In this document: piece by piece, positions 2,815-58,344 of the stretch
Position numbering within the stretch: position 1 is the stretch's first letter
Layout: every line of letters starts with the position of its first letter
Source of the DNA: an uncultured bacterium
GTDB taxonomy: Bacteria; Patescibacteriota; Minisyncoccia; Phycocordibacterales; PALSA-1337
Reading direction: 5' to 3'
DNA: 64,000 nt
Assembly (NCBI GenBank): GCA_963851055.1
Contig: CAWKMY010000004.1
Location: forward strand, 16,677 to 80,676
The notes under the pieces: generated by a model
The model's database searches: none
Told to the model about the DNA's origin: nothing
The model's input: only the letters and a program-made list of their open reading frames with translations
Position numbers and translations under genes: made by a program

Positions 2815-2839
2815 TACAAATGTTATAATACATCTCGTT

Positions 2840-3085
2840 ATGTCTAACGTAGAATTCGATACAGATCTCGATAATAACCCACGTTACGCGCAGCAGGCTT
2901 CGGCGGGAGCTATATCCAGTCGGAATGGCGCATATGGCCATCCACAAAGTCGCGGCATGGCTGGCTGGCTGGTGGCTCATGGTATAGTCAGTGGCGATTC
3001 AAGCGCCAAGACTGTGCTCATAGGCATAGTTTGCATAAATTTCTTGGCCGCTGCGCTAATCCTTTATTTCTTCGTCTTGCGCTAG
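2840..3085 (+). CDS. hypothetical small tail-anchored membrane protein
   Basis: The ATG at 2840 follows TGTTATAAT and lies downstream of the aldolase stop. One C-terminal hydrophobic helix (VLIGIVCINFLAAALILYFFVL). Confidence 0.45.
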   Translation: MSNVEFDTDLDNNPRYAQQASAGAISSRNGAYGHPQSRGMAGWLVAHGIVSGDSSAKTVLIGIVCINFLAAALILYFFVLR

Positions 3086-4126: not shown

Positions 4127-4834
4127 ATGTTGTCATTAGTTGTCGAACGCCGAGAAGGCGCCAAAAACGAGGTTTTGAGGAAAGCAGGCAAGATTCCTGC
4201 CGTCTTTTATGGTCCAAAAGAAGCCTCAACTTCTGTTGCTATAAACACAAAAGAATTCGCCAAGATCTGGAAGAAAGCCGGTGAATCCTCGGTCATTATT
4301 CTCAAAGATGGTACGACCGAGCACGAAGCTCTCATTCACGAAGTGGACAAGCATCCTCTCACGGGCGAACCTCGTCATGCTGATTTCTATGTTATCGAAA
4401 AGGGAAAGAAAGTCACCGTCAGTGTTCCTATCATATTTGTTGGAATTTCTCCTGCGGTTAAAGACAAGGGTGGTATTCTGGTAAAAGTCCATCGCGATAT
4501 CGAGGTGGAAGCCGGAGCTCGCGATTTGCCGCACGATTTGACCGTAGATATCTCCAAACTTATAGAATTGAATAGCGTTATTCATGCCAAGGACATTATT
4601 CTTCCGAAAGGCGTAGATTTGAAGATCAATCCTGATGAAGTCGTAGCATCCATAGCTGAAGCCAAGGAAGAAGTTGTCGAAGCTCCTGCCGCCATCGACA
4701 TGTCATCTATCGAAGTTGAAGCCAAGGGCAAGGAAGTTAAGGAAGGCGAAGCTCCTGCCGGTGATGCTGGTAAGGGCGGTGCCGCCGATGCGAAGGGAGG
4801 TGGCGATGCGAAGAAGTCTCCTGAGAAGAAATAA
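4127..4834 (+). CDS. rplY: ribosomal protein bL25 (Ctc form) with Lys/Gly/Ala-rich tail
   Basis: RKAGKIPAVFYG, HADFY and the two-domain length (235 aa). Confidence 0.85.
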   Translation: MLSLVVERREGAKNEVLRKAGKIPAVFYGPKEASTSVAINTKEFAKIWKKAGESSVIILKDGTTEHEALIHEVDKHPLTGEPRHADFYVIEKGKKVTVSVPIIFVGISPAVKDKGGILVKVHRDIEVEAGARDLPHDLTVDISKLIELNSVIHAKDIILPKGVDLKINPDEVVASIAEAKEEVVEAPAAIDMSSIEVEAKGKEVKEGEAPAGDAGKGGAADAKGGGDAKKSPEKK

Positions 4835-4854
4835 AAATACTCAAACTGTTTTGG

Positions 4855-4880
4855 AAGGGCGCCTCCGGCGCCTTTTCTGT
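4855..4880 (+). terminator. putative intrinsic terminator after rplY
   Basis: GGCGCC-TCC-GGCGCC hairpin followed by TTTTCT. Confidence 0.5.
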
Positions 4881-4886
4881 TATAAT
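4878..4886 (+). promoter_or_regulatory. extended -10 box TGTTATAAT, 6 nt before GTG 4893
   Basis: TGnTATAAT match by eye. The spacing implies a leaderless or near-leaderless start. Confidence 0.35.
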
Positions 4887-4892
4887 AGACTC

Positions 4893-6269
4893 GTGAATAT
4901 AGCAGTAAAAAGCGCTTTTTTTGTTGCGATTTTCGTCGCTATGCTGATTTCAGCCGTAGCTCTTACGTCCCGTTTTGTTAATGCCCAAACCCTGCAATGC
5001 AACACTGCCGCCGAAAAAGTCGCTTGTCAGAACGCTCTCAACCAAGCTCTGGCTGACGAGGCGGCCGCCCAAGCCCAACTCACGCAAGCCCAAGGCAAAA
5101 GCGCCACCCTGACACAAGCCATAGCCCTTCTAACGGCCAAAATCAATGCCGCCGAGGCCCAGATCAAAGCCGAAAATATCCTTATACAGACGCTCGGTAG
5201 CGATATAGTAGACAAACAGAATCATATAACCGATCTAGAAACACACATAGCGACAGGTAAACAGACTCTAGCTGATATTCTCCGTAAGACGAATGAGCTC
5301 GACGCTTATTCTTTGCCGGAAGTTCTTTTATCGCAATCGACTGTCACTGGTTTTTTTAATGATATTGATACTTTTCAAGCTGTTCAGAACGGTCTTGAAA
5401 ATACCTTCAATATGCTTCGGACCGACGAGGCTTCGACTAGCGCAGAGAAAGATGCTCTGACCGTGCGGCAAAATACAGAAGAGGATGCCCGCTACGCTAT
5501 CCAGCAGCAGGAAGCTTCCGTTAAGAGCGATCAGGCCGAACAGAAACAGCTACTCTCCATCAGCAAAGGAAATGAAAAGGCTTATACGACGGTAGTGGCA
5601 CAGAAAGCCGCTCAAGCGGCACAAATAAGAGCGGCCCTATTCCCATTGGCTGGAGGTGGAAAGTCCATACCATTCGGCACAGCATACCAATATGCCCAAG
5701 TAGTCCAACAAAAGACTGGTGTGCCGCCCGCATTCCTTCTCGCTATCCTTACTCAAGAAACCAACCTCGGCGGCAATGTCGGCACATGTTATCTCACCGA
5801 TCCGAGTAGCGGTTCCGGTATCAACATAAAGACCGGCGCCATGATGGCCAAGGTCATGAGCCCGACTCGTGATGTTCAGCCATTCCTTCAGATCGTCCAA
5901 TCTCTCGGCGGTGACTATACGAAGACGGTAGTCTCATGTCCACAATCGGTCGGATGGGGCGGAGCTATGGGACCTGCCCAATTTATCGCTTCCACTTGGA
6001 TGCTACTCAAGGATCGCATTGCGGCAGCTATGGGCGATAGTACGCCTAGCCCGTGGGATCCACAGGATGCTTTCATGGCCGCTGGACTTTATCTGTCTGA
6101 CCTTGGTGCAGGTTCAACTAGTTATACTGCGCAGAAGAACGCCGCCTGTAAATATTATTCTGGTCGCGCTTGCGGATATGTCACAGGTGCTACCGCCTAC
6201 GGCAATAGCGTTCTGGCCTTAGCAAATCAGATACAGACGACGGAGATAGATGCTCTGCAGGGGCTATAG
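4893..6269 (+). CDS. secreted coiled-coil protein with C-terminal lytic transglycosylase-like domain
   Basis: The GTG at 4893 gives a signal peptide (VNIAVKSAFFVAIFVAMLISAVALTSRFVNA|Q). A long Ala/Gln coiled coil follows, then LLAILTQETNLG and GAMGPAQFIASTW (MltB/SLT-like motifs). The ORF-track start at 4674 overlaps rplY and was rejected. Confidence 0.7.
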   Translation: MNIAVKSAFFVAIFVAMLISAVALTSRFVNAQTLQCNTAAEKVACQNALNQALADEAAAQAQLTQAQGKSATLTQAIALLTAKINAAEAQIKAENILIQTLGSDIVDKQNHITDLETHIATGKQTLADILRKTNELDAYSLPEVLLSQSTVTGFFNDIDTFQAVQNGLENTFNMLRTDEASTSAEKDALTVRQNTEEDARYAIQQQEASVKSDQAEQKQLLSISKGNEKAYTTVVAQKAAQAAQIRAALFPLAGGGKSIPFGTAYQYAQVVQQKTGVPPAFLLAILTQETNLGGNVGTCYLTDPSSGSGINIKTGAMMAKVMSPTRDVQPFLQIVQSLGGDYTKTVVSCPQSVGWGGAMGPAQFIASTWMLLKDRIAAAMGDSTPSPWDPQDAFMAAGLYLSDLGAGSTSYTAQKNAACKYYSGRACGYVTGATAYGNSVLALANQIQTTEIDALQGL

Positions 6270-14507: not shown

Positions 14508-15479
14508 TTACGCTTTCTTCGGTGTTTCGGTCAGAAGATAGACTATGGTCACGATAAGCAGAAGGATAACCATGAATGCTATCCAACCCCAAGGAATGGA
14601 GATGAGTCCGGCAGCGGCGGCGTTCGGAACGGTATTCTGTGTCGGAGTCGTCGGAGCAGCTGGGGCAACGGCCCTAGGAATATATGTAGATCCGGCGCCG
14701 CGCACGGTCAGGGTGTTGTTGCAAGAGTTGGTGCCGTGCAGGCCGTCGGCAGAAGTGACCATAACGACGGCGGTCTTTTCACCGGCAGAACTGTAATATT
14801 GGGTAGCTGAATTTTGCGATCCGGAAAGGCCGTCGGAACCGGTCCAAGAATAAGTATACGGAGCGGCACCGCCGGAGACTGTCGCAGTCCAAGTTACGGG
14901 CTGATTTATGACAGATGTGGACGGACTGACTGAACAGCTGACGGAAAGGGTAGGCGCGATGGTCTGACTTACATAAGTAGTCGGCTGATAGGCTACCGTC
15001 TGTACCGGCTGTTGGTAATATGTAGGCTCCGAATAATATGTCGGTTGGGAATAGTATGTAGGCTGCGAATAGTAAGTCGGTGCTTGATAGTAGGTCGGTT
15101 CGGCTACAGGATAGTAGACCGGGTATGAAACGGGAGTGCTGTTGTATGAATAAGGTCCATTTACATTGTAGTTATAATCATAATTATAATGAGTTACGGA
15201 ATGATCACCTTGGTCAGATGAACCGCCATGGTTGTTGTAATTATAGTTACCGCCATTACTACCATAGCTGTAATTATAGTTACCGCCATTATTACCATAG
15301 CTGTAATTATAGTTATTTCCTCCGCTGTGGCTGGTATTGCCGTAGCTGTAATTGCTAGTGCTGCCACCGTAGCTATAAGCCTGCGTTACAGGTGCTACGC
15401 TGAAAAAGGCCGTAAGGAACAGGCTGAAAAAGGCCACAATGCCGAAGATCTGGTATGTAGTTTTGGTGGTTTTAACCAT
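14508..15479 (-). CDS. secreted Tyr-rich repeat protein with PKD-like domain and C-terminal membrane anchor
   Basis: The start is taken at MVKTTKTTYQIFGIVAFFSLFL (signal). It has NYNYSYG and PTYYSQ repeats, a PKD-like VTWTATVSGGAAPYTYSWTGSDG, and a C-terminal GLISIPWGWIAFMVILLLIVTIVYLLTETPKKA. Confidence 0.6.
   Translation of the reverse strand: MVKTTKTTYQIFGIVAFFSLFLTAFFSVAPVTQAYSYGGSTSNYSYGNTSHSGGNNYNYSYGNNGGNYNYSYGSNGGNYNYNNHGGSSDQGDHSVTHYNYDYNYNVNGPYSYNSTPVSYPVYYPVAEPTYYQAPTYYSQPTYYSQPTYYSEPTYYQQPVQTVAYQPTTYVSQTIAPTLSVSCSVSPSTSVINQPVTWTATVSGGAAPYTYSWTGSDGLSGSQNSATQYYSSAGEKTAVVMVTSADGLHGTNSCNNTLTVRGAGSTYIPRAVAPAAPTTPTQNTVPNAAAAGLISIPWGWIAFMVILLLIVTIVYLLTETPKKA
15237..15320. repeat. 33-nt tandem repeat (about 2.5 copies) inside the Tyr-rich gene
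   Basis: The unit gtaattatagttaccgccattactaccatagct is repeated at 15237, 15270 and 15303. Confidence 0.75.
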
Positions 15480-15555
15480 ACGCGGTATTCTACAGTACCT
15501 TACCGGAAAAGTCAATAGGGTGTATAAAAGCCTTATTTCTGGTACTATTTTGAGC

Positions 15556-17706
15556 ATGAATGATAAGTTCCTCAAGCCTTACAATCCGGCCGAAACTGAA
15601 GCCCGCATATACGAGACGTGGGAGAAAAGCGGCTATTTCAATCCTGATCAATGCATCAAGAAAGGCCTAACGTCGAAAGATGCCAAGCCCTTCACTATCA
15701 TCATGCCGCCGACGAACGCCAACGGCTCTTTGCACGCCGGTCATGGCTTGGTCATGACTATCGAAGACATAATGACTCGCTACAAGAGGATGTGCGGGTA
15801 CAAGACTCTTTGGCTACCAGGGTTGGATCATGCCGGTTTTGAGACGCAGGTCGTGTATGAGAAAAAATTGGAGAAAGAAGGAAGAACGAGATTCGATATA
15901 GAGCCAAAAAAACTTTATGAAGAGATTCTAGATTTCACTCTGAAAAATTCCGCAAATATAAAATCTCAAGTCAGGAATATGGGCGCTTCATGCGACTGGT
16001 CCAGAGAAAAATTCACTCTCGATCCGGATATTGTAAAGACTGTCTACTCTACCTTCAAGAAATTATCTGACGACAATCTGCTTTATCGCGGCAAGCGCAT
16101 AGTTTCATGGTGCCCGAAGCATCAGACTTCTTTTTCTGATCTGGAGATAAAGGATGAAGAGCGCAAAGAAGATTTCTATTACTTGAAATATGGTCCATTC
16201 GTCATAGCTACTTCTAGGCCGGAGACAAAATTTGGCGACAAATATGTGGTTATGCATCCGGATGACAAACGTTATGAAAATTATAAGGATGGCCAAAAGA
16301 TAGATCTCGAATGGATAAACGGTCCTATAACAGCGACCATCATCAAAGACAAAGCTATAGATATGGCTTTCGGTACTGGCGTTATGACTATAACTCCGTG
16401 GCATGATCCAGTGGACTTTGATATCGCCGAACGGCATGGTTTGGACAAAGAACAGATCATAGATGAGCAAGGTAAACTTTTGCCTATTGCGGGAGAATTC
16501 GCCGGACAACACATAAAAAAAGCACGGCCCCTCATCATTGAAAAGCTCAAGTCAAAAGGTTTGGTGGAAAAGATAGATCCGAATTATAACCACGTAGTCA
16601 GGACCTGCTATAAATGCGGCACGGTCATAGAGCCGCAGATCAAGAGCCAGTGGTTTGTGCGTATGAAGCCATTGGCGGAAAAAGCTTTGGAGAAGATCAA
16701 GGCCGGGGAAGTCACATATATACCAGATCATTATGAAAAGATAACCACACATTGGCTGACCAATATCATGGATTGGAACATCTCCAGACAGATCGTCTGG
16801 GGTATACCCATACCGGCCAAAATATGTGGGAAATGTGGTGAGGGTTTCGTTGATCTGGATGACAAGCTCAAGAAGTGCGCGAAATGCGGGGGCGCGCTGT
16901 CCAAAGACAATGATACTTTCGACACATGGTTCTCATCTGGTCAATGGCCATTTGCTACGCTCGGTTTTCCTGACGGAGATGACTTCAAAAATTATTATCC
17001 TACTGATGTTATGGAAACAGCCGGTGAAATCATATTCTTCTGGGTAGCTAGGATGATAATGCTAGGTCTGTATGTGACCGGAAAAGTCCCATTCAAAACG
17101 GTCTATTTGCATGGCTTGGTCTTGGATGCCAAAGGCCTGAAGATGAGTAAGAGTAAGGGCAATGTCATAGACCCCTTGGTTCTGACTTCAAAGTTTGGTA
17201 CAGACGCCTTCCGTATGGGATTGGTTATAGGAAATACCCCTGGCACTTCCTTGGCCCTTTCAGAGGATAAAGTTTCTGCTTATAAGAAATTTGCCAATAA
17301 GCTTTGGAATGTAACCAGGTTCGTCCTAACTTCAACCGAAGGCATTTCGTATGATCCCAAGTTCTCTGCTTATGAGCCTTCGGATAAAGCATATATTGAT
17401 AGCCTAAATAGCCTCATAACTGAAGTGACGAAAGAAATGGATGAATACAAATTCTACATCGTAGCCGAGAAACTTTACCACTACGTCTGGCATGAATTTG
17501 CTGACAAGATCATAGAAGAGAGTAAAGCCATAATAGATGGTAATGATGATGGAGCCAGTCTTTCTCGCAAGCAGTTCATGCTTCATGCCTTACACACTAT
17601 GCTCAAGCTTCTGCATCCATTTATGCCTTTCATAACCGAGGAGATATGGTCTCTAATCAGCCTAGATAAATCGATACTGATGGTCCAGAAATGGCCTAAG
17701 GAATAA
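15556..17706 (+). CDS. valS: valine--tRNA ligase (short form, no C-terminal coiled coil)
   Basis: PPTNANGSLHAGHG (HIGH), WLPGLDHAGFETQ and LKMSKSKGN (KMSKS). The start is at MNDKFLKPYNP. 716 aa. Confidence 0.9.
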   Translation: MNDKFLKPYNPAETEARIYETWEKSGYFNPDQCIKKGLTSKDAKPFTIIMPPTNANGSLHAGHGLVMTIEDIMTRYKRMCGYKTLWLPGLDHAGFETQVVYEKKLEKEGRTRFDIEPKKLYEEILDFTLKNSANIKSQVRNMGASCDWSREKFTLDPDIVKTVYSTFKKLSDDNLLYRGKRIVSWCPKHQTSFSDLEIKDEERKEDFYYLKYGPFVIATSRPETKFGDKYVVMHPDDKRYENYKDGQKIDLEWINGPITATIIKDKAIDMAFGTGVMTITPWHDPVDFDIAERHGLDKEQIIDEQGKLLPIAGEFAGQHIKKARPLIIEKLKSKGLVEKIDPNYNHVVRTCYKCGTVIEPQIKSQWFVRMKPLAEKALEKIKAGEVTYIPDHYEKITTHWLTNIMDWNISRQIVWGIPIPAKICGKCGEGFVDLDDKLKKCAKCGGALSKDNDTFDTWFSSGQWPFATLGFPDGDDFKNYYPTDVMETAGEIIFFWVARMIMLGLYVTGKVPFKTVYLHGLVLDAKGLKMSKSKGNVIDPLVLTSKFGTDAFRMGLVIGNTPGTSLALSEDKVSAYKKFANKLWNVTRFVLTSTEGISYDPKFSAYEPSDKAYIDSLNSLITEVTKEMDEYKFYIVAEKLYHYVWHEFADKIIEESKAIIDGNDDGASLSRKQFMLHALHTMLKLLHPFMPFITEEIWSLISLDKSILMVQKWPKE

Positions 17707-17792: not shown

Positions 17793-18863
17793 ATGAAAAT
17801 ATATAAAAATATCGTTCTATGTTTCGCCTTCGTCGCTGTTCTCGGCATAGGCGCTTCGGTGGCTCGCGCTGACTCATCGACTCTCTCCGGCTGGGCATGG
17901 TCTTCGACTATAGGTTGGCTTTCATTTAATTCTGCCGATAGTGGTGCAGGAGGGGGACCTTACAGCGTAAATATTTCTACGAGTACGGTTGGATCAGATA
18001 TTGTCGGCGCCCTTTCCGGTTACGCTTGGTCGCCGAATATTGGATGGGTCAGCTTCAATAATCAAGGCGATTGGACTGGTTGTCCTTCAGGTTCTTGTCC
18101 GCCTACGATAGATATGACTACTGGTGCCGTCTCCGGCTGGATACGCGCTCTCGCAGGCGTTGGCAGGACTGACGGTTGGGATGGGTGGATAGAACTTTCT
18201 GATAGCGGTTTGAATGCAAAACATCCGACAGGTGATACTAGCGGCAATGGTGGCAGTTCACTTACGTGTTACATTGTTCTAACAGGTGGATCCATGTTTT
18301 GTCGGTTACGCCTGGGGCGGTCCGGTCGTAGGGTGGTTAGACTTTTTCCCCGACTTCTACTGGTTGCACCAGTGATGGAGTGGCGTCAATACTATGTGAT
18401 CCATTGACGGATCCGGCTGTCGGATGGTGTAACGACATCCGATCTGACATTACAAGTAAATGATCCAATATCTGGATGGGGAGGAGTGGCGAATGTAACT
18501 GCAGATTCGTCCGGAAATGTTTCTGTTCCGGTGAAGTGGACAGTAAACGGGGTATTAACAAATGTTACGTCATTATCAAATGATTGGGGGATATCCTCTG
18601 GATCCACCGTAGACGCTTCTGGTAAGCCATTCAATTCTAGTGGCTCTGACGCCCTTAGCTTCAGTGGCATCACTACACAGACCGTAAAACAACTAAGCCT
18701 GAAATATTTCACAGGCCTTGTTTCCCACACATTGCCATATGTCACTATAACTATAAATCCATACCAGCCTATAATAACGTCGAATGCACTCAACCAAGCC
18801 GTCTTGGCAATGCTACTCGATATGGGTACAGATTCAGCTAACTCCCAAGGTCCGCAAGGATGA
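17793..18863 (+). pseudogene. disrupted gene for secreted GWxWSxxIGW-repeat protein
   Basis: The signal peptide and two GWAWSSTIGWLSFN / GYAWSPNIGWVSFNN repeats are in frame 0. The third repeat, VGYAWGGPVVGWLDF, is readable only in frame +1 (18301-18345). Frame 0 hits TGA at 18405 and then continues as plausible protein to 18863. Confidence 0.5.
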
Positions 18864-18985
18864 ATACCAGCATGTTCGACCAATGCCAGATTGCAATGTG
18901 AGTTTTATGCAAGCCAGAATATACTTTGAAAGGTAATCTTGTTTAAGGTCAGCAATCCAAGAAATATAGGTTATATATAAATAGG

Positions 18986-19022
18986 TAAAAAAATACGCCA
19001 AGTCCAGATGGACTTGGCGTAT
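18986..19022 (-). terminator. intrinsic terminator of the 19041/19094-19735 gene
   Basis: ATACGCCAAGTCC-agat-GGACTTGGCGTAT is a 13-bp perfect stem, followed on the minus strand by TTTTTTT. Confidence 0.75.
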
Positions 19023-19093
19023 TTGCATTGAGATGTTCAGTCATGTTGCTCGTTTTCGCCGAAATATGACGAAAAATGGAATACCAACTATGG

Positions 19094-19735
19094 CTAGAAG
19101 GCAATCGTTGAAGGTTCCGGCGTCGCGTATATTGTAAGAGCTGATTGGCTCATATTTCCGGCATAATATGTTACGGTCTCATATATTGGCGGCACGGCGG
19201 CCCAAGCAGCAGTTCCTTGCTGAAGGGTGCTATTTCCGTTATCAACAGTGTAGCCAGCCCCGAGAACGTAAACGGCTGTGACAGGGGTGGTTGAATTATC
19301 CGAAGTATAGATCGTTGAGCCATTTATCCCGACTCCCTCCAGAGTGAACGACGCTCCCAGTCCGCCGAAGGTATTGGAAAGCGTGCCGAACCGATCACTT
19401 AATGACAAGCCAATGGAAGCCAATGTGAACGGGACCGAATTGGTGTAAGACAGCCCGTAGAACATGGCATTGCCGCTTCCGTCACTCCAGTTGAAGACAT
19501 TGGATATCTGCACCAAGCTAGCGTTCGGGATGCTATTCCAGCTACCATAAGACGCTAGTCCATTCTCCATGGCATACACGAAGTCGTTCACGTTTCCTTG
19601 CGTATAGTTCAAAGGCAGAATCCCTTGAACGATGTTCATTTGCCCTTGCCCAAAACCGGACAAAGGTATGGCCACCATGGCCGCTATGACGACGGCCAAC
19701 AGGGCCGGCGCCGTCCGACTATTCATAGTTTTCAT
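19094..19735 (-). CDS. secreted protein ending in PEP; the PEP-CTERM-like anchor continues in the -1 frame to 19041
   Basis: Signal peptide MKTMNSRTAPALLAVVIAAMVAIPLSG. The ORF ends ..YATPEPSTIAF*. The overlapping -1 frame reads LLAIVGIPFFVIFRRKRAT*. Confidence 0.6.
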   Translation of the reverse strand: MKTMNSRTAPALLAVVIAAMVAIPLSGFGQGQMNIVQGILPLNYTQGNVNDFVYAMENGLASYGSWNSIPNASLVQISNVFNWSDGSGNAMFYGLSYTNSVPFTLASIGLSLSDRFGTLSNTFGGLGASFTLEGVGINGSTIYTSDNSTTPVTAVYVLGAGYTVDNGNSTLQQGTAAWAAVPPIYETVTYYAGNMSQSALTIYATPEPSTIAF

Positions 19736-19849
19736 TTTTTTCCTTTCAAAAGCGCCCTTTTGTGATGTTACAGGCGCAGTTCAATTTGTTTACCGCTACT
19801 ATACAAGTTTAATATTATCTGTCAAGAGGACTTATACACCCATCAAAAG

Positions 19850-19871: not shown

Positions 19872-20552
19872 ATGAAATTATATTTCCTCCCACCGCTCGT
19901 ACTGCAAAAGTTGATATGGATACCGACGAATATTCTCCTCCGCGGTTTCGGCCATTTGGATGTGAGGGGCTTGGAAAATTTAAAAGGCCTAAAAGGTCCG
20001 GTCATATTTGCCTCTAACCATAGTAGTGAGACTGATCCCTTTTTTATTCCCGCTTCACTGCCATTTTTCTCACGTTTTTCTCCGATATTCTATACTTCGC
20101 GTGAGAGCAGGTTTTATGTAAATTCCGGCTGGCGCAAACATTTCTATGGTGGGTGGTTCTTCAAAGCTTGGGGTTCATATCCCGTCCATGTCGGCTTGCA
20201 TGATTATGAAAAGTCGTTGGCTCATCACATCGATATCATCCGTGCCGGTGGCAGTATAAATATTTTTCCCGAAGGCCGTACTACGCCCGACGGCAGTATC
20301 CAGCCGGCAAAGGGGGGCGTGGCTTATCTGGCATATATTACCGGCGCTAGCATTGTTCCCGTGCGCATAAGAGGCGTCTTCCATTTTTCCGCCAAGGAAT
20401 TCCTGTTAGGCCGCAGGCATTTGTCCATAACTTATGGAAAGCCGATGCATTTTATGGCCAAGCATAATTCAAATCAAACCGGCATCGAACCTTTACTCGA
20501 GGATCTGAAAACTTATGCCAACTTGGTCATGGGGGAGGTTGGGAAACTATAA
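19872..20552 (+). CDS. plsC: 1-acyl-sn-glycerol-3-phosphate acyltransferase
   Basis: NHSSETD (HxxxxD) and FPEGRTT motifs. The start is at MKLYFLPP. Confidence 0.8.
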   Translation: MKLYFLPPLVLQKLIWIPTNILLRGFGHLDVRGLENLKGLKGPVIFASNHSSETDPFFIPASLPFFSRFSPIFYTSRESRFYVNSGWRKHFYGGWFFKAWGSYPVHVGLHDYEKSLAHHIDIIRAGGSINIFPEGRTTPDGSIQPAKGGVAYLAYITGASIVPVRIRGVFHFSAKEFLLGRRHLSITYGKPMHFMAKHNSNQTGIEPLLEDLKTYANLVMGEVGKL

Positions 20553-25822: not shown

Positions 25823-25957
25823 ATAACCCGTCACGAATTGCGCCTGATCATGCGATTGTCGGCGGCGACGATCGACAAGTATACCCACGAGCTGGTCGCC
25901 GCAGGCCGTCTCCGTCACATCGGTCCGCCGAGCCATGGGAGGTATGAGAAGGTGTGA
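25823..25957 (+). pseudogene. GC-rich remnant of a winged-helix DNA-binding gene (C-terminal about 44 codons)
   Basis: ITRHELRLIMRLSAATIDKYTHELVAAGRLRHIGPPSHGRYEKV*. It is visibly more GC-rich than its neighbours. The same PPSHGRYE ending recurs at 25259-25303. Confidence 0.3.
25925..25951 (+). repeat. direct repeat copy 2
   Basis: See copy 1. The two copies are identical at 23 of 27 positions by manual alignment. Confidence 0.7.
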
Positions 25958-25970
25958 GAGTTTTGAGGTA

Positions 25971-25979
25971 TGTTAGTAT
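25971..25979 (+). promoter_or_regulatory. extended -10-like box TGTTAGTAT, 7 nt before ATG 25987
   Basis: tgtTAGTATagcttcaATG. Confidence 0.3.
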
Positions 25980-25986
25980 AGCTTCA

Positions 25987-26418
25987 ATGGAATCCTCGAG
26001 ATTTATAAAAGTCAAAGCTATGTGTGTCATCAAGCGCAAGGACGGTGCTATTTTGGCTAGTCTTGGCTATGACAAGGTCAAAGACGAACATTTCGCTCGC
26101 CTCATAGGCGGCCACGTCGAATTCGGTGAGACAGTGGAGGTAGCTTTGCGCAGGGAATTCAAGGAGGAGCTCGGTTGTGGTCCGAAAAGCCTATCTTTTA
26201 TAAAGGTTTTGGAGAATATCTTCACATACAACGGTGAACTCGGCCACGAGATCGTCTTTCTCTATTCCGGCGGTCTGGAAGATGAGAGCATATACGTCAA
26301 AGAGAAGCTCAACATACTCGATGATCCCAAGACCGAGGTTAGATGGATAAAACCGGAAGACATAAAAACCGGGAAAATGAAATTGTATCCGGAGATCGAT
26401 TACAAGACATTATCATGA
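25987..26418 (+). CDS. NUDIX hydrolase
   Basis: Nudix box GGHVEFGETVEVALRREFKEELG. The start is moved to MESSRF. Confidence 0.8.
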   Translation: MESSRFIKVKAMCVIKRKDGAILASLGYDKVKDEHFARLIGGHVEFGETVEVALRREFKEELGCGPKSLSFIKVLENIFTYNGELGHEIVFLYSGGLEDESIYVKEKLNILDDPKTEVRWIKPEDIKTGKMKLYPEIDYKTLS

Positions 26419-26948
26419 ATTCAAATCTAATAATCCTTCCGGGCAATGGTCTGACTAACAAAGAATGGGCTGAAAAAGCACGAGACTTTTTTGCAAATCA
26501 CTTCAAGTCCGTAACTATTCAATACTACGATCATTGGTCTAATAAGTCTGAGTTGATAGATATGGATATTGAATTAAAAAAGTTCACTGATACTGTGAAC
26601 GCATTAAGTGGAAATGTAGCAATTCTGGCGAAATCTGTAGGCACAGTATTGACCATGTATGCGATTTATTCAACATCTATAGATGTGTCTCGCATTACAA
26701 AATGTGTTTTTGTTGGTTTACCGCCAGAGTGGGCGAGAACAAAAGGTTTTGATATTGACGGCTGGTCGACTGCTTTTACTATACCTACTACATTGATTCA
26801 GAATGATAATGATCCTGTTGCCACGGCTGAAGGCATACGGAAAGAGCAGATGGGTGGTAAATTCAAGAATATGACACTTATAGAGGTAAAAGGTGATGAT
26901 CATGCGTATGGTGATTTTGATGAGATAGGAAGATATCTAATCGACTAA
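26415..26948 (+). CDS. alpha/beta-fold serine hydrolase-like protein
   Basis: The ATGA overlaps the previous stop. LIILPGNG, AKSVG (GxSxG variant), NDNDP and GDDHAY suggest a Ser-Asp-His triad. Confidence 0.5.
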   Translation: MNSNLIILPGNGLTNKEWAEKARDFFANHFKSVTIQYYDHWSNKSELIDMDIELKKFTDTVNALSGNVAILAKSVGTVLTMYAIYSTSIDVSRITKCVFVGLPPEWARTKGFDIDGWSTAFTIPTTLIQNDNDPVATAEGIRKEQMGGKFKNMTLIEVKGDDHAYGDFDEIGRYLID

Positions 26949-28521: not shown

Positions 28522-28549
28522 TAGAAGCAGGATATGAAAGAAGGTGAAT

Positions 28550-29863
28550 ATGATCTCGAAATACCTTCGGATTAGAAAGAAGGACGACCAAGTTGTCGTA
28601 TTTCATGAGCTTCATCCTGATCCGATATATTGCTCTTTGGAAAAATGGGAGCAGTTCGTATCGAATCAAAAAGGAGATGATGCTTTCGTGGAAGGCTTAA
28701 AGAAACGTAAACTGATAGTTGATCAAGAAGTTGATGATCAAGCTGAGTATGATGCGATATCTGCTCGGCTACAGAGAAAACATAGCCAGGCAGGAACTCT
28801 GTATCTGATGACCGCGCAAGGTTGCAACTTCAATTGCGGGTACTGTTTCGTTCCAGAGCTCGCCCGTAAGTTCGGAGAATCTATGTTAACCGAAGAGAAC
28901 GCAATTGCCGGGATCAACCTCTGGTATGAACATCTCAAAGTGGCACATGATCAAAATGTGGAATATTTCGTAATCTTCTACGGTGGCGAGCCTTTATTGA
29001 ATAAGGCTGTGATTGAAAAGTCACTCCCGTATCTGAAGAAAATGAAAAGCATTACAGGATTACCAGACCGACTCAACCTGATGATGGTGACGAACGGGTT
29101 ACTTGTTGATGATTCAATCATCTCGATGTGCAAGGAACACGACATTATGGTCGTTGTCAGTCTCGACGGTTCAAAGCTTGTGCATGATTCCTTTAGAGTC
29201 GATACTCTTGGTAACGGGACATATGAAGCGGTCGTAGCCGCGATCAAAAAGCTCGTTGCAAGTGGAATCAGAACATTTGGTTCAGTAACCATTACACCGC
29301 AGAATATCAACCGGCTTGGAGAAGTGTCAGATCACCTTACCGAACTGGGAGTCGAAAAAATCGGCTTCAATTTCATAAAAGGCAAAAAACTGATTGAGCT
29401 GGTTGGTAAAGATGGAGTCGGTCAGTATTGTGAGCAAGCGGCGAAAGCTGTTCTCGAATACTCCCATAGTCACAAGTTCGGTTCCGAATATCAGTTGGAG
29501 AAGAAGGTTCACGCTTTCAACGAGCAGGACTTTTTCCCTCATGACTGTACCTGCTATGGTAGCCAGCTTGTGATACAACCAGACGGTCAGATATCAAATT
29601 GCCCATTCTTCAAGGCAGGTCTCGGACATGTTAAAGAAGTGGGCAAGGATTTCAGAATTTGGGATCAATCTTTGGTTCATGAGTGGCGCAAAAGACTACC
29701 GCTCTATAGCCAAGGATTTAGGAACAATGACGCGAAAGCGTTATGTGGAGCAGGGTGCGCCTGGAGTTCGGAAGAGCTTTACGGCGATATACTTGCTGTC
29801 GATCAAATCAGTCGCATCTTTGGAGAGGAGGTATTCAATGAACTCATATGGTCAAAACAGTAA
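28550..29863 (+). CDS. radical SAM enzyme with C-terminal SPASM/twitch domain (peptide-maturase architecture)
   Basis: CNFNCGYC (CxxxCxxC). C-terminal CTCYGSQLVIQPDGQISNCPFF...LCGAGCAWS. About 90 aa precede the core. ATG 28550 has an AAGGTG Shine-Dalgarno sequence. The ORF-track GTG at 28544 is less likely. Confidence 0.85.
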   Translation: MISKYLRIRKKDDQVVVFHELHPDPIYCSLEKWEQFVSNQKGDDAFVEGLKKRKLIVDQEVDDQAEYDAISARLQRKHSQAGTLYLMTAQGCNFNCGYCFVPELARKFGESMLTEENAIAGINLWYEHLKVAHDQNVEYFVIFYGGEPLLNKAVIEKSLPYLKKMKSITGLPDRLNLMMVTNGLLVDDSIISMCKEHDIMVVVSLDGSKLVHDSFRVDTLGNGTYEAVVAAIKKLVASGIRTFGSVTITPQNINRLGEVSDHLTELGVEKIGFNFIKGKKLIELVGKDGVGQYCEQAAKAVLEYSHSHKFGSEYQLEKKVHAFNEQDFFPHDCTCYGSQLVIQPDGQISNCPFFKAGLGHVKEVGKDFRIWDQSLVHEWRKRLPLYSQGFRNNDAKALCGAGCAWSSEELYGDILAVDQISRIFGEEVFNELIWSKQ

Positions 29864-30671
29864 TAAACCAAAGATTGGGATTATTGGAGGCACTGGTATG
29901 GAAACATTTCCAGAACTCAAGGTAATCTCGAGTGCTAGGCAATCGAATCGGTACGGTACGCCTTCTGGCGATGTACTTATCTGTGAATATCACAGAAAGA
30001 CAGTCGCGTTTATACCCAGACATGGGAGTGGACACGACATTCCTCCGCATAAGATTCCGTACAAGGCAAACATCCTAGCTCTCAAAGAAGCGGGTGTTGA
30101 GTATATTATTGGGACTTGCGTGACAGGTAGTCTCAAGAAGGAGATTCAGCCAGGCATGTTCGTTCTTCCTGATCAATTCGTCAATCTTACATGGGGAAGA
30201 GATGACAGTTACGAGCATGATAACGGTTTTATCCACCTACCTATGGGTAACCCGTATTGTGAACATGTAAGAACGCAGATTCTCTCCTTCGCAAAGTCGG
30301 CCAATGTAAGTATTGTGCCTGCGGGGACAGTCGCTGTTATTCAGGGACCGAGATTCTCAACTGCTGCGGAAAGCCGATGGTATTCTGCAAACGGATGGGA
30401 CATTATTAACATGACACAATATCCTGAATGTTACTTTGCGAAAGAACTGGGTATTTGCTACGCGGTAATCGCGTCAGTTACAGATTACGATGCGGGGTTG
30501 CAAGAGAACCTAACAATTGATCCCTTACATGCGGATAAATTTCTGAAAGTTTTCAGGGAGAATACTCGCAAAACTAAGGATCTGTTGTTAGCTTTAATTG
30601 ACAGCCCATTTTCGGAATTCTCATGCAAGTGCGCGACTGATGTGGTCAAAGCGTACTACGAACAAACATAG
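29838..30671 (+). CDS. mtnP: S-methyl-5'-thioadenosine (MTA/5'-deoxyadenosine-type) phosphorylase
   Basis: KIGIIGGTG, IPRHGSGHDIPPHKIPYKANI and QGPRFSTAAES motifs. The ATG lies 26 nt inside the rSAM gene. Confidence 0.85.
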   Translation: MNSYGQNSNKPKIGIIGGTGMETFPELKVISSARQSNRYGTPSGDVLICEYHRKTVAFIPRHGSGHDIPPHKIPYKANILALKEAGVEYIIGTCVTGSLKKEIQPGMFVLPDQFVNLTWGRDDSYEHDNGFIHLPMGNPYCEHVRTQILSFAKSANVSIVPAGTVAVIQGPRFSTAAESRWYSANGWDIINMTQYPECYFAKELGICYAVIASVTDYDAGLQENLTIDPLHADKFLKVFRENTRKTKDLLLALIDSPFSEFSCKCATDVVKAYYEQT

Positions 30672-30675
30672 TAAA

Positions 30676-30706
30676 CCGCTGGAAGAAATTCCGGCGGCTT
30701 TTGTTG
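30676..30706 (+). terminator. putative terminator closing the cassette
   Basis: CCGCTGG-aagaaatt-CCGGCGG (7 bp with one GU pair) followed by CTTTTGTTG. Confidence 0.5.
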
Positions 30707-30734
30707 TCAAATTCGTTACAATATGTTATGGTGA

Positions 30735-30767
30735 GAACAGACAAAAGAGCATTGACAGTGATATAAT
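30735..30767 (+). promoter_or_regulatory. promoter of the ABC-F gene
   Basis: Perfect extended -10 TGATATAAT (30759-30767) with a CAGACA -35-like box 18 nt upstream. Confidence 0.45.
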
Positions 30768-30791
30768 TCACTCGAAAAAGAAAGGAATTTT

Positions 30792-32468
30792 ATGCTTACC
30801 GTCAAACAAATCAGCAAGAACTATGGATCGAGAACGGTACTTTCCGGTGTCTCTTTTGCGCTTGGAAAAGGCGACAAAGCGGCATTGGTTGGGCCAAATG
30901 GTGTTGGGAAGACGACGCTTCTTCGAATTTTTGCAGGTATCGAGGAGCCGGATTCTGGTACTGTGGAAGTGCAAAAAACCGCTTGTATCGGATATTTGGA
31001 ACAAGATACCAGTGTAATGGGAACGGACACGGTTCTTGATTACTTGAAGACAGTTTCGGGGATCATTGAACTTGAGAAGAAATTGGAGGATCTGTCGACA
31101 CAACTTACTGACCCCAAGAAGGCTTTAGAGTACGGCGAAGCCCAGGAGAAGTATGATCGCCTTGATGGGTATTCGTTTTCTCATCGAGCACAGATCATCC
31201 TGTCCGGTTTCGGTTTTGTCGAGAGTGACATGGGCAGGTCGGTCAGCGATCTAAGCAGTGGACAGAAAGTCAAAGTGTCACTCGCTGGTATCCTTCTAAA
31301 AGGAGTCGATCTGCTCCTTTTGGATGAACCGACGAACAATCTTGATCTACCGTCTCTCATTTGGCTTGAGGACTTTCTCAAGACATCTGAAGCTGTAGTG
31401 ATCGTTGTTTCTCATGATCGGAGATTCCTCGATAAGGTGACCAGAAAGATCATCGAAATCGATCGGAATACGAAATCGGTCACTGTTACCGGCGGGAAGT
31501 ATAGTGATTATCTGGAAATGTCGATCAAACGTTTGGAAAGTGCGCGAGAAGCCTATCGTCTCCAACAGGAGGAAATAGAGCGTCTCACTGAAGAAGTTCG
31601 TAAGAAAAAGATGGAGGCTGATCGAGGTTCGAGATGGCAAGGTAGCGACAATGACAAATTCCTGCGTGGTTTCAAAAGAGACCGAGCAGGAAGGTCGGGT
31701 AAACGCGCCAAAGCTATTGAGAAACGGATTGACCAGATCGAGAAGGTTGAAAGACCAATCGAAAGGGATCCCCTCGAAATTCCTCTTGAAGCACCAGCTA
31801 ACGTTGGAACTCTTCACATCACCCTTGATAAGGTTGTAGCCGGGTATCCTGGAGTATTCTCCATCGGACCAGTCTCAATTGAAATCATGTATGGTAATAG
31901 AGTCGGTATCATGGGCCTAAACGGTTCCGGTAAATCGACACTACTGAAAACACTCACTGGCGTTATTTCGCCACTCAGTGGATCGGTGGAGATCGGTTCC
32001 GGTATTCGTATCGGCAACATGATGCAGGAGCATGAAATCTTGCCGAAAGACAAGACGCCCATCGAATTCCTGGAAGGCGAAGGAAAGTTAAACACACAGG
32101 ATTCCTATGCCAAGCTTGCAAAATTCGGCATCGGTGAGCAGCAAGCTCGGAGGTTGATAAGTGAATTGAGTCCTGGTGGCCGTGCCCGTCTGATTCTGGC
32201 GTTCTTCTCGGCTTTGTCGGTAAATGCGTTGGTGTTGGATGAACCGACAAACCATCTTGACATAGAAGCAGTTCAAGCGCTTGAGGAAACTCTTGCGTTA
32301 TACAAAGGTACCGTAATCTTGGTATCACATGATCGATATTTTCTTGAAAAAGCCAAACTTAACACCGTCTATCTGATCTCAGCAGGACAGTTCTCGAGAA
32401 TTGGCGATTACAAGGAGTATATTGAATCCATAGAGAAACGAGTTAAACGACTGGTTAAATCATTGTAA
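30792..32468 (+). CDS. ABC-F family ATPase (two ABC domains, no TM)
   Basis: Two Walker A sites (GPNGVGKTT, GLNGSGKST), two signature motifs (LSSGQKVK, LSPGGRAR) and a charged linker. Confidence 0.9.
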   Translation: MLTVKQISKNYGSRTVLSGVSFALGKGDKAALVGPNGVGKTTLLRIFAGIEEPDSGTVEVQKTACIGYLEQDTSVMGTDTVLDYLKTVSGIIELEKKLEDLSTQLTDPKKALEYGEAQEKYDRLDGYSFSHRAQIILSGFGFVESDMGRSVSDLSSGQKVKVSLAGILLKGVDLLLLDEPTNNLDLPSLIWLEDFLKTSEAVVIVVSHDRRFLDKVTRKIIEIDRNTKSVTVTGGKYSDYLEMSIKRLESAREAYRLQQEEIERLTEEVRKKKMEADRGSRWQGSDNDKFLRGFKRDRAGRSGKRAKAIEKRIDQIEKVERPIERDPLEIPLEAPANVGTLHITLDKVVAGYPGVFSIGPVSIEIMYGNRVGIMGLNGSGKSTLLKTLTGVISPLSGSVEIGSGIRIGNMMQEHEILPKDKTPIEFLEGEGKLNTQDSYAKLAKFGIGEQQARRLISELSPGGRARLILAFFSALSVNALVLDEPTNHLDIEAVQALEETLALYKGTVILVSHDRYFLEKAKLNTVYLISAGQFSRIGDYKEYIESIEKRVKRLVKSL

Positions 32469-56068: not shown

Positions 56069-56587
56069 ATGAAGAATATTTCAATGAAGTGCGCGAAATG
56101 GTTTAAGTCTGTCATGGTGCTTTTCTCGGCGGTTTTTCTTTTAGTACCGTCGCTTATCGCTCCGGCTATTCTTATACCAATGACTGCGGTTGCGCAAACA
56201 CAGCCGGTTGATAATGTAAATCTCAATGATTCTGCTTTCAAGATTGTTGTATGTGATGGACCTCAGCTGCCTTCCACTATGACTACTCCAAGCGGATACA
56301 TTCCATGTAATTTTAATTACGCTATCTTCCAAATCCAACACCTCATCAACATTGCAATAGTCGTCGGCGTCTTTGCCGCCATCGTCCTGTTCTCTTACGC
56401 CGGCTACATCTATATTTCCGGAGGCATGCGTGGTGACGCCAATGCCCATTCGACCGCTATAGACATCTTCCGAAAAGTCGGCATAGGGTTTATAATCATG
56501 TTGTCGGCCTGGTTCATCGTATATCAGATCATGGCTTGGCTGACGGGGAGTTCTGGTTTTGCCGTACTTTTAGGAAAGCCGTCGTAA
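56069..56587 (+). CDS. VirB2/TrbC-like (T4SS-pilin-like) small membrane protein 1
   Basis: Signal peptide, Cys-containing variable part, helix IAIVVGVFAAIVLFSYAGYIYI, loop SGGMRGDANAH, helix VGIGFIIMLSAWFIVYQIMAWL. Confidence 0.6.
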   Translation: MKNISMKCAKWFKSVMVLFSAVFLLVPSLIAPAILIPMTAVAQTQPVDNVNLNDSAFKIVVCDGPQLPSTMTTPSGYIPCNFNYAIFQIQHLINIAIVVGVFAAIVLFSYAGYIYISGGMRGDANAHSTAIDIFRKVGIGFIIMLSAWFIVYQIMAWLTGSSGFAVLLGKPS

Positions 56588-56603
56588 TAAACGATTTATT
56601 TCA

Positions 56604-57107: not shown

Positions 57108-57136
57108 ATTAATCATATTATAAAATCATCAATAAC

Positions 57137-57436: not shown

Positions 57437-57447
57437 TAAATCCACCA

Positions 57448-57837: not shown

Positions 57838-57940
57838 TAAGGACCATACCTATCCACAGGGCTTAATTGTATAGAAGAGGCAACAGATGTATCATTGAAC
57901 CACGAATTAGTATTAATTATCAGCAGCCTAATCAAACATC

Positions 57941-58342: not shown

Positions 58343-58344
58343 GG

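What the first reader, a model, noticed from the sequence alone, without database searches (positions are those of the whole stretch)
19041..19135. Textbook PEP-CTERM sorting tail hidden in the -1 frame of a secreted protein
Seen in sequence: the 213-aa secreted ORF ends ..IYATPEPSTIAF then TAG (19094-19096). Re-reading one base (C at 19100, a -1 shift at att-gcc|c-tt) gives ..PEPSTIA-LLAIVGIPFFVIFRRKRAT then TGA (19041-19043). That is PEP, a hydrophobic helix and an Arg/Lys cluster. A 13-bp perfect terminator hairpin follows immediately at 18986-19022. Established knowledge: a PEP motif followed by a TM helix and a basic tail is the exosortase (PEP-CTERM) sorting signal, known mainly from outer-membrane-bearing, EPS-producing bacteria. 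Inference: there are three readings. The gene may have lost its anchor through a recent 1-nt deletion. The assembly may have dropped a base. Or anchoring versus release may be tuned by frameshifting. A PEP-CTERM signal would itself be unexpected in a CPR-like genome.
Basis: partly seen in the sequence, partly recalled or inferred. Interest (0 to 1): 0.55.

Follow-up and report, generated by a model that had tools for sequence, protein, structure and literature searches.

The report
Frameshifted PEP-CTERM surface-protein gene in CPR
A small secreted-protein gene of a CPR (Patescibacteria) bacterium has lost one base just before its membrane-anchor tail; relatives keep that PEP-CTERM tail in frame, so the frameshift is an ordinary lesion or sequence error, and the mildly interesting point is that this sorting signal is conserved in bacteria with no outer membrane.

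Summary
The minus-strand ORF 19094-19735 ends PEPSTIAF-TAG. The -1 frame from 19100 reads LLAIVGIPFFVIFRRKRAT-TGA. The joined protein passes the PEP-CTERM model TIGR02595 (24.4 bits, cutoff 16).

It is not a chance resemblance. A 91%-identical orthologue on a syntenic metagenome contig (L001) carries the same tail in frame. The DNA alignment shows one 1-nt gap: window ATTGC-CTTCT against ATTGCGCTTCT.

Downstream of the gap, the two sequences differ at 11 synonymous and 2 non-synonymous sites in the tail frame. So the tail was under selection until very recently.

The gene belongs to an unnamed family of about 230-aa secreted beta-sandwich proteins. Thirty-three of 52 relatives carry PEP-CTERM tails. 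In at least five CPR loci it sits in the same place: PlsC-like acyltransferase, this gene, a GWAWS-repeat protein, ValRS.

Programmed frameshifting is not supported. There is no slippery site, no downstream structure, and every orthologue is in frame.

Real mutation versus consensus error cannot be settled without reads. The neighbouring gene and two histidine kinase genes are also frame-broken, while housekeeping genes are intact.

No exosortase lies in the 64 kb window. The rest of the genome could not be searched.

The parts
19798..19825 (-). Promoter-like site TTGACA-16 nt-TATAGT (11 of 12 matches) upstream of the gene
   Evidence: This is a consensus match only.
19094..19735 (-). ORF as it stands: 213 aa made of a signal peptide, a beta-sandwich passenger domain and the PEP motif, ending ...PEPSTIAF then TAG
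   Evidence: The database copy is P0001 (210 aa from the second Met).
19646..19735 (-). N-terminal signal peptide region (MKTMNSRTAPALLAVVIAAMVAIPLSGFGQ). It is the most diverged part compared with L001.
   Evidence: Sequence. Family alignment. dS 0.26 and dN 0.29. Helix 6-18 in the model of the orthologue P0002.
19112..19120 (-). Codons CCG GAA CCT, the PEP motif. P and E are invariant across the family.
19100..19101 (-). Site of the 1-nt deletion. The orthologue reads GCG CTT (Ala-Leu). The window reads GC-CTT, so a G is missing between 19101 and 19100.
   Evidence: alignment A1, which has a single 1-nt gap
19041..19100 (-). Displaced 3' end of the gene in the -1 frame: LLAIVGIPFFVIFRRKRAT plus TGA, that is, a TM helix and a basic cluster
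   Evidence: TIGR02595 scores. 11 synonymous versus 2 non-synonymous differences from L001. Binomial P = 4e-5.
18991..19024 (-). Intrinsic-terminator-like hairpin (15-pair stem, 4-nt loop, T-run). It begins 16 nt after the tail-frame stop codon and 69 nt after the TAG.
17793..18966 (+). Convergent neighbour: a GWAWS/IGWxSF-repeat secreted protein gene, the conserved partner of the PEP-CTERM gene in all syntenic loci. Here it is broken by at least four frame changes and an in-frame stop.
   Evidence: Intact orthologues of 787, 405 and 403 aa are.
19872..20552 (+). Divergent neighbour: an intact PlsC-like 1-acylglycerol-3-phosphate acyltransferase. It is part of the conserved synteny.
   Evidence: orthologues in L003, L009, L010

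Best explanation
The feature is the authentic 3' end of a PEP-CTERM protein gene, put out of frame by loss of one G between 19101 and 19100.

The intact gene, as seen in relatives, encodes four parts: a Sec signal peptide, a beta-sandwich passenger domain of about 170 aa, an invariant PEP motif, and a TM helix followed by an Arg/Lys cluster.

By analogy with exosortase and archaeosortase substrates, such a protein is exported and held in the cytoplasmic membrane by the C-terminal helix. It is then cut at or near PEP by a dedicated membrane transpeptidase and passed to a surface acceptor. That step is inferred, not shown.

In this genome the deletion gives a 213-aa product ending PEPSTIAF with no helix and no basic cluster. 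If the gene is expressed, the passenger domain would be released instead of anchored and processed.

I judge the lesion most likely to be a genuine and very recent mutation. It looks like part of the decay of a two-gene surface module, because the conserved partner gene next door is also disrupted.
For: Shown:
- The tail exists and passes TIGR02595.
- Orthologue P0002/L001 is 91% identical and syntenic, and has the tail in frame. The DNA alignment shows exactly one 1-nt gap.
- In the tail frame the two sequences differ by 11 synonymous and 2 non-synonymous changes (pS 0.68, pN 0.049; binomial P = 4e-5). The frame was selected until recently.
- Family picture: 51 HMMER relatives. Thirty-three of the 52 non-window sequences held (51 relatives plus cluster member P0002) end in PEP + TM + basic tails. 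P and E are invariant, and the window copy is the only full-length member that stops right after PEP.
- The gene order PlsC / PEP gene / GWAWS protein / ValRS is fully seen in the window, L002/L010 and L003. It is seen in part in L001 and L009, which are cut by contig ends.
- The promoter-like site is present. The terminator sits just after the tail-frame stop, not after the TAG.

For a real rather than artefactual lesion:
- The partner gene at 17793-18966 has at least four frame changes plus an in-frame stop, and an in-frame stop (a base change, not an indel) is not a dropped-base error.
- Two histidine kinase genes are also broken.
- Seven syntenic housekeeping genes and all Pfam-checked overlapping ORFs are intact.
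- Two independent Logan contigs from run ERR10755936 match 8.6 kb of the window at 100% identity with no gaps.
Against: - No reads could be inspected.
- All the broken genes belong to paralogous or strain-variable families: surface repeat proteins, sensor kinases, and a gene whose core is 97-98% identical to that of another lineage. These are exactly the places where consensus or polishing errors cluster.
- Several of the other lesions are compensating frameshift pairs about 130 nt apart. That pattern also fits local consensus trouble.
- The gene itself shows no other sign of decay. Core dN/dS is about 0.09 and the expression signals look intact.
- CPR genomes are streamlined, so four multi-lesion pseudogenes in 64 kb would be unusual.
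- The truncated products (213, 210 and 204 aa) are not on record in the Logan assembly of the matching run. No independent assembly confirms the deletion.
- No exosortase gene was found, so the processing step is inferred only.
Confidence: 0.5

Rival explanations
1. This is a consensus or assembly artefact. The organism's gene is intact (231 aa with an in-frame PEP-CTERM tail) and one G was dropped when the contig consensus was built. A likely cause would be reads from co-occurring close relatives that share the near-identical gene core being mixed during assembly or polishing.
For: - The tail frame is perfectly preserved, with a synonymous-dominated difference pattern.
- There is no other lesion in the gene, and the promoter and terminator are intact.
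- The gene core is 97-98% identical to a different lineage whose flanks are only about 72% identical. Cross-mapping of reads is therefore plausible.
- The other frame-broken genes in the window are also in multi-copy or variable families, and some lesions are compensating pairs.
- Neither the truncated nor the intact product appears in the Logan assembly of the matching run, which suggests the region assembles poorly.
Against: - Elsewhere the contig is error-free against independent Logan contigs: 8.6 kb with 0 mismatches and 0 gaps.
- About 55 kb of housekeeping coding sequence shows no frameshift.
- The deletion is not in a homopolymer (GCGC to GCC).
- The neighbour gene also carries an in-frame stop, which indel-type errors do not produce.
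Confidence: 0.42
2. This is programmed -1 ribosomal frameshifting, or another form of recoding. A fraction of ribosomes slip at GCC-TTC and make the anchored form. The rest stop at TAG and make a released form.
For: Only two things: the tail frame is open and intact, and the TAG lies right after the shift point.
Against: - No X_XXY_YYZ slippery heptamer and no homopolymer at or before the site.
- The 81 nt around and after the site fold no better than shuffles (z = -1.58; 11 of 200 shuffles fold as well).
- The only strong hairpin is the terminator, about 75 nt downstream.
- All orthologues and 33 family members encode the tail in frame, so no recoding site is conserved.
Confidence: 0.03
3. 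The resemblance is chance. An alternative frame happens to read like a PEP-CTERM tail and the true gene ends at PEPSTIAF.
For: Nineteen stop-free codons in an alternative frame are not rare in themselves.
Against: - The orthologue has the in-frame tail, 17 of 19 residues identical.
- TIGR02595 scores above its cutoff.
- Selection signature of 11 synonymous to 2 non-synonymous differences.
Confidence: 0.01

Closest known systems
PEP-CTERM / exosortase protein-sorting system (TIGR02595, Pfam PF07589; exosortase EpsH/Xrt family), for example the Zoogloea floc protein PepA and cyanobacterial CrtB substrates
   Same: - Same tripartite C-terminal signal at the extreme C-terminus: PEP, a TM helix and an Arg/Lys cluster.
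- An N-terminal signal peptide and a small passenger domain.
- The generic model TIGR02595 is passed by the repaired protein and by 12 of 30 family members.
   Different: - The host is a CPR/Minisyncoccota-type bacterium, a group without an outer membrane (my own knowledge, not tested here). The system is described for Gram-negative cells (PMC12188702 abstract).
- The passenger domain matches no named PEP-CTERM family. All NCBIfam hits are confined to the tail and fall below the family cutoffs.
- No exosortase gene and no second PEP-CTERM protein lie in the 64 kb window.
- This copy is frameshifted.
Archaeosortase ArtA / PGF-CTERM (and PEF-CTERM) sorting in archaea
   Same: It shows that the same enzyme superfamily and the same tail architecture work in cells with a single membrane. 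That makes it the best functional analogy for a CPR cell envelope. The tail gives a weak hit to PEF-CTERM TIGR03024 (17.8 bits).
   Different: The motif here is PEP, not PGF or PEF. The PEF-CTERM score is below its cutoff of 23. The organism is bacterial. No archaeosortase gene was seen.
Frameshifted surface-protein pseudogenes and anchorless alleles (for example truncated LPXTG proteins in Gram-positive bacteria)
   Same: A single-base indel just upstream of the membrane-anchor segment turns an anchored surface protein into a secreted or lost one. The partner gene is also degraded.
   Different: The sorting signal is of the exosortase type, not the sortase type. Whether the lesion is real is not yet established.

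Membership tests
PEP-CTERM sorting-signal protein (TIGR02595 / PF07589) | PEP motif, then a hydrophobic TM helix, then a basic cluster at the extreme C-terminus | tested here: met
   Met only after joining the two frames: PEPSTIA-LLAIVGIPFFVIF-RRKRAT. In the frame as sequenced the protein ends at PEPSTIAF, so this copy as encoded lacks the signal.
PEP-CTERM sorting-signal protein (TIGR02595 / PF07589) | Score above the curated HMM cutoff | tested here: met
   TIGR02595: 24.4 bits against a cutoff of 16 for the whole repaired protein, and 30.2 bits for the tail alone. Pfam PF07589 is borderline: 16.3 for the whole protein, below 20.7, and 22.3 for the tail alone.
PEP-CTERM sorting-signal protein (TIGR02595 / PF07589) | N-terminal signal peptide, so that the protein crosses the cytoplasmic membrane | tested here: met
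   By inspection only, since no signal-peptide predictor was available. The sequence is MKT..R.. followed by a hydrophobic stretch and GFGQGQ. It is conserved across the family alignment. The model shows an N-terminal helix at 6-18.
PEP-CTERM sorting-signal protein (TIGR02595 / PF07589) | An exosortase (EpsH/Xrt, PF09721/TIGR04178) encoded in the same genome | tested here: inconclusive
   None of the ORFs of at least 100 aa with three or more predicted TM segments in the window, nor the two membrane ORFs of L002 and L003 that were scanned, hits an exosortase model in Pfam or NCBIfam.
PEP-CTERM sorting-signal protein (TIGR02595 / PF07589) | Several PEP-CTERM substrates per genome (many-to-one pairing with the sortase) | tested here: inconclusive
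   This is the only such tail in six-frame scans of the window. The rest of the genome was not seen.
PEP-CTERM sorting-signal protein (TIGR02595 / PF07589) | Host with an outer membrane and an EPS biosynthesis locus (the original description) | not tested
   The context is CPR. A syntenic locus is titled Candidatus Paceibacterota, which is a name for the phylum Minisyncoccota. The nearest histidine kinase homologues are named Patescibacteria, Paceibacterota and Taylorbacteria. Four T4SS_pilin PF18895 genes are present. That CPR cells lack an outer membrane is my own knowledge, not tested here.
Named PEP-CTERM passenger families (PepA NF033554, NF038129, THxN, FxDxF and others) | Full-length match above the family cutoff | tested here: not met
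   Hits are restricted to the last 40-100 residues and score 19-25 bits against cutoffs of 60-100. The passenger domain has no Pfam or NCBIfam family and no PDB fold match with E < 1e-3.
Programmed -1 ribosomal frameshift site | Slippery heptamer X_XXY_YYZ at the shift point | tested here: not met
   The sequence is ACG AUU GCC UUC UAG. No slippery heptamer or homopolymer is present.
Programmed -1 ribosomal frameshift site | Stimulatory RNA structure a few nucleotides downstream | tested here: not met
   MFE -15.9 kcal/mol, z = -1.58, and 11 of 200 shuffles fold as well.
Programmed -1 ribosomal frameshift site | The frameshift requirement is conserved in orthologues | tested here: not met
   The L001, L002/L010, L003, L009 and L004/L008 genes all encode the tail in frame.

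The most novel reading that the evidence does not exclude
A clade of CPR (Paceibacteria-type) bacteria, which have no outer membrane, keeps a working PEP-CTERM/exosortase-like surface-sorting pathway. Its substrate gene sits at a fixed locus next to a GWAWS-repeat surface protein. The passenger cassette is swapped between lineages by recombination. The window copy would then be a snapshot of that module being switched off or turned into a released form.
Probability: 0.4. Interest if true: 0.6.

Novelty: new member of a known kind. Interest (0 to 1): 0.38.

Why it matters
The frameshift matters mainly for annotation. The gene should be read as a disrupted PEP-CTERM protein gene, not as a 213-aa secreted protein, and the base should be checked in the reads.

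The wider point is of moderate interest. The PEP-CTERM signal is described as a device of outer-membrane-bearing, EPS-producing bacteria. Here it is invariant and under purifying selection in a syntenic gene of several CPR genomes.

If those genomes encode an exosortase-family enzyme, CPR cells would be a second single-membrane setting for this sorting chemistry, after the archaea. That would open a route to identifying CPR surface proteins involved in attachment to hosts.

Full-text searches pairing PEP-CTERM or exosortase with CPR names found nothing on the topic: three pairings returned no paper, and the papers returned by the other three are on other subjects.

Tried and rejected
- **Other tails in the window.** Regex scans of all six frames found no other PEP-CTERM or TM-plus-basic tail.
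- **Word-indexed protein search with the repaired protein.** It found only the window's own cluster. The intact orthologue came from listing cluster members. The wider family came from the exhaustive HMMER search.
- **Independent assembly of the site.** I looked for one in Logan contigs of run ERR10755936. Flanking intact genes were found and are 100% identical. The 213-aa, 210-aa, 204-aa and 226-aa products are not on record. A search with a histidine kinase fragment found no Logan copy either. Real versus artefact therefore stays open.
- **Exosortase hunt.** All multi-TM ORFs of the window, and two membrane ORFs of the syntenic loci L002 and L003, were scanned against Pfam and NCBIfam with no hit.
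- **First locus search.** The first attempt at search for related loci failed because the 30-sequence alignment had no conserved stretch.
- **Overlapping ORFs as evidence of a generally error-prone assembly.** Pfam shows the pairs at 25954-26948, 28544-32468, 4127-6269 and 1936-3085 are separate, complete genes. Rejected.
- **Recent transfer from an outer-membrane phylum as the origin of the gene in this genome.** Rejected because of the conserved synteny across CPR loci. Non-CPR-looking relatives with a different C-terminal domain do exist.

Full report
**1. Observation**

On the minus strand the 213-aa ORF 19735-19094 ends ...ACG CCG GAA CCT TCA ACG ATT GCC TTC TAG, which reads T-P-E-P-S-T-I-A-F-stop. 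Translation from 19100 in the -1 frame gives LLAIVGIPFFVIFRRKRAT followed by TGA at 19043-19041. A 15-pair hairpin with a T-run lies at 19024-18991. A TTGACA-16-TATAGT promoter-like site lies at 19825-19798.

**2. Is it more than chance?**

- The joined 231-aa protein scores 24.4 bits on the PEP-CTERM model TIGR02595 (curated cutoff 16). The tail alone scores 30.2 bits.
- Pfam PF07589 is borderline: 16.3 bits for the whole protein and 22.3 for the tail, against a cutoff of 20.7.
- The decisive evidence is comparative. The protein's 90% cluster holds a second member, P0002, of 230 aa. It comes from JGI metagenome contig Ga0395719_001040 and ends ...AAPEPSAIALLAIVGIPSFVIFRWKRAT in a single frame.
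- That contig (L001) is syntenic with the window.
- The DNA alignment of the two 3' ends has exactly one gap: window ATTGC-CTTCTAGCC against L001 ATTGCGCTTCTGGCT. The window therefore lacks one G between 19101 and 19100.
- In the 19 codons after the gap, read in the tail frame, the two sequences differ by 11 synonymous and 2 non-synonymous changes (pS 0.68, pN 0.049). If changes were neutral, 2 or fewer non-synonymous out of 13 would have P = 4e-5.
- The tail frame was therefore under purifying selection for essentially all of the divergence between the two lineages. The loss of frame is very recent, or it is not real.

**3. What the gene is**

An exhaustive HMMER search of 1.84 billion representatives found 51 relatives, 34 of them at E ≤ 1e-10. 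They are proteins of about 230 aa with these features:

- an MKT..RR.. signal peptide ending near GQG;
- a domain of about 170 aa with a YTSGNANTPV-like motif;
- in 33 of the 52 non-window sequences held (the 51 relatives plus cluster member P0002), a PEP + TM + basic tail.

P and E of the motif are the only fully invariant columns in the 30-sequence alignment. The second P is at least 90% conserved. About ten relatives carry a different C-terminal domain of about 70 aa ending FYRLKYP or similar. The window copy is the only full-length member that stops right after PEP.

NCBIfam hits of family members are confined to the tails. Only the generic TIGR02595 model passes its cutoff. The named PEP-CTERM families do not.

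An AlphaFold2 model of P0002 built with the family alignment is confident (pLDDT 87.5). It shows a beta-sandwich followed by the C-terminal helix. Foldseek against the PDB finds nothing with E < 1e-3. The passenger domain is therefore an uncharacterised beta-sandwich.

**4. Genomic and taxonomic context**

Scans of genome and metagenome collections gave further loci. The order PlsC-like acyltransferase / PEP-CTERM gene / convergent GWAWS..IGWxSFN-repeat secreted protein / ValRS recurs in these loci:

- the window;
- L001 (cut at the contig end, so no acyltransferase is seen);
- L002 and L010 (same proteins; L002 is titled Candidatus Paceibacterota bacterium);
- L003;
- L009 (a short contig that ends before ValRS).

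Candidatus Paceibacterota is a name for the phylum Minisyncoccota, that is, Patescibacteria or CPR. Two other observations fit a CPR origin. The window carries four T4SS_pilin (PF18895) genes. The nearest homologues of one of its histidine kinases are named Patescibacteria group, Paceibacterota and Taylorbacteria.

The gene is therefore a conserved, vertically placed gene of a CPR clade, not a stray. All CPR copies other than the window's have the tail in frame.

The passenger evolves like an exchanged cassette:

- Against L001 the gene core (window about 19140-19680) is 97-98% identical in DNA (dS 0.09), while the flanks are about 72% identical and ValRS is 42% identical in protein.
- Against L009 the adjacent PlsC is 83% identical, but the PEP protein is only 38% identical.
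- A 51-53% identical relative (P0003) lies in a mobile or defence island with an OLD nuclease, a UvrD helicase, a serine recombinase and restriction-modification genes.

**5. How it most likely works**

Shown: the intact family member has a signal peptide, a folded passenger domain, an invariant PEP motif, a TM helix and a basic cluster, and this tail is under purifying selection.

Inferred from established knowledge of exosortase and archaeosortase substrates (PEP-CTERM proteins trafficked by exosortases, PMC12188702 abstract; archaeal PGF-CTERM/ArtA as the single-membrane precedent, my own knowledge): the protein is exported and held by the C-terminal helix. A membrane transpeptidase then cuts it near PEP and attaches it to a surface acceptor.

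In the window copy the product ends PEPSTIAF. It has no helix, so it could not be retained or processed. If made, it would be released.

**6. The three readings**

*Programmed frameshifting* is not supported.
- There is no slippery heptamer or homopolymer at the site.
- There is no significant structure after it (z = -1.58).
- The only strong hairpin is the terminator, about 75 nt away.
- No orthologue needs a shift.

*Real mutation or consensus error* cannot be decided without reads.

In favour of a real lesion:
- The conserved partner gene next door (17793-18966) is broken by at least four frame changes and an in-frame stop, relative to three intact orthologues.
- Two histidine kinase genes (about 40256-41131 on the plus strand and 38507-36863 on the minus strand) are also frame-broken. 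One carries a pair of shifts that puts the N-box DKLKQVIANLIDNSMKYTPK out of frame.
- Seven syntenic housekeeping genes and every Pfam-checked overlapping ORF pair are intact.
- 8.6 kb of the window matches two independently assembled Logan contigs of run ERR10755936 with no mismatch or gap.

In favour of an artefact:
- Every broken gene belongs to a paralogous or strain-variable family, where consensus building is hardest.
- Some lesions are compensating pairs.
- The PEP gene has no other defect: core dN/dS is about 0.09 and its signals are intact.
- Multi-lesion pseudogenes are unusual in streamlined CPR genomes.
- No independent assembly shows the truncated products.

I put a real recent lesion at about 0.5, an artefact at about 0.4, and recoding at about 0.03.

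**7. Exosortase**

Among window ORFs of at least 100 aa with three or more predicted TM segments, and the two membrane ORFs of L002 and L003 that were scanned, none matches an exosortase or archaeosortase model in Pfam or NCBIfam. That covers only 64 kb of this genome.

Full-text searches pairing PEP-CTERM or exosortase with CPR names (candidate phyla radiation, Patescibacteria, Parcubacteria, CPR bacteria) found nothing on the topic. Three pairings returned no paper. The papers returned by the other three are on other subjects. The one I opened mentions PEP-CTERM only in a reference about the host Zoogloea.

**8. Verdict**

The feature is a genuine PEP-CTERM tail displaced by a single-base deletion, in a gene that belongs to an unnamed PEP-CTERM protein family conserved at a fixed locus in a CPR clade.

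The frameshift itself is ordinary: either a young lesion or a consensus error. The moderately interesting residue is that an exosortase-type sorting signal is conserved and selected in bacteria without an outer membrane. This needs a whole-genome search for the cognate enzyme.

Noticed in passing
window 17793-18966 (+): The GWAWS/IGWxSFN-repeat secreted protein gene, the conserved convergent partner of the PEP-CTERM gene, is broken. Its frame changes 0 to 2 to 1 to 2 to 0 around 18230-18430. It has an in-frame stop at 18861-18863, and its C-terminal CLRSAIQEI lies in another frame at 18940-18966. Orthologues of 787, 405 and 403 aa are intact.
   Followed up: yes
window 40256-41131 (+) and 36863-38507 (-): Two sensor histidine kinase genes are frame-broken. 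In the first, a pair of frameshifts puts the ATP-binding N-box (DKLKQVIANLIDNSMKYTPK) into another frame for about 45 codons. The second is split over the -3 and -1 frames with stops. Homologues of about 260-300 aa in Patescibacteria MAGs are intact.
   Followed up: partly
window 19140-19680 compared with L001 91-631: The gene is mosaic. Its core is 97-98% identical in DNA to L001 (dS 0.09). The signal-peptide part is about 65% identical, the tail about 80%, and the flanking genes about 72%. This points to recent recombination of the passenger cassette between lineages. Conversely, L009 has an 83%-identical PlsC next to a PEP protein that is only 38% identical.
   Followed up: partly
L005 1575-2372; L011 296-1180; proteins P0005, P0007, P0010, P0014, P0017, P0031, P0040, P0041: About ten family members replace the PEP-CTERM tail with a C-terminal domain of about 70 aa ending FYRLKYP, FFRLKQ or similar. 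The two loci seen have higher GC (0.56) and do not look like CPR. The same passenger is thus coupled to a different C-terminal module in another lineage.
   Followed up: no
L004 4458-5111 and L008 9995-10699: The 51-53% identical relative P0003 lies in an island with an OLD-family nuclease, a UvrD-like helicase, an HTH regulator, a serine recombinase and type II restriction-modification methylases. So the family also travels on mobile or defence islands.
   Followed up: no
window 15439-17706 compared with L001 3239-5698: ValRS at the syntenic position is only 42% identical to that of L001 (46% to L002 and L003). The neighbouring M48 peptidase, LemA and SecG are 90-96% identical to L001. Divergence along the syntenic block is very uneven.
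   Followed up: no
window 56069-58650 (+): Four tandem small membrane proteins match T4SS_pilin PF18895 (and TrbC/VirB2). The hit for the ORF at 56069-56587 is below the Pfam cutoff. The Logan contig annotation marks the ORF at 57448-57837 as T4SS_pilin as well.
   Followed up: no
L001 796-3159 (-): The L001 orthologue of the GWAWS protein is 787 aa because of an internal insert of about 1.3 kb that is rich in YxEKRD / GxLIWS repeats (beta-propeller-like). The insert is absent from the window, L002 and L003 versions.
   Followed up: no
window 20502: Logan contig L007 from run ERR10755936 starts exactly here, inside the PlsC-like gene. No Logan gene product could be found for the 17.8-20.5 kb stretch. 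That fits strain-level variation or poor assembly of this surface-protein locus in the sample.
   Followed up: partly
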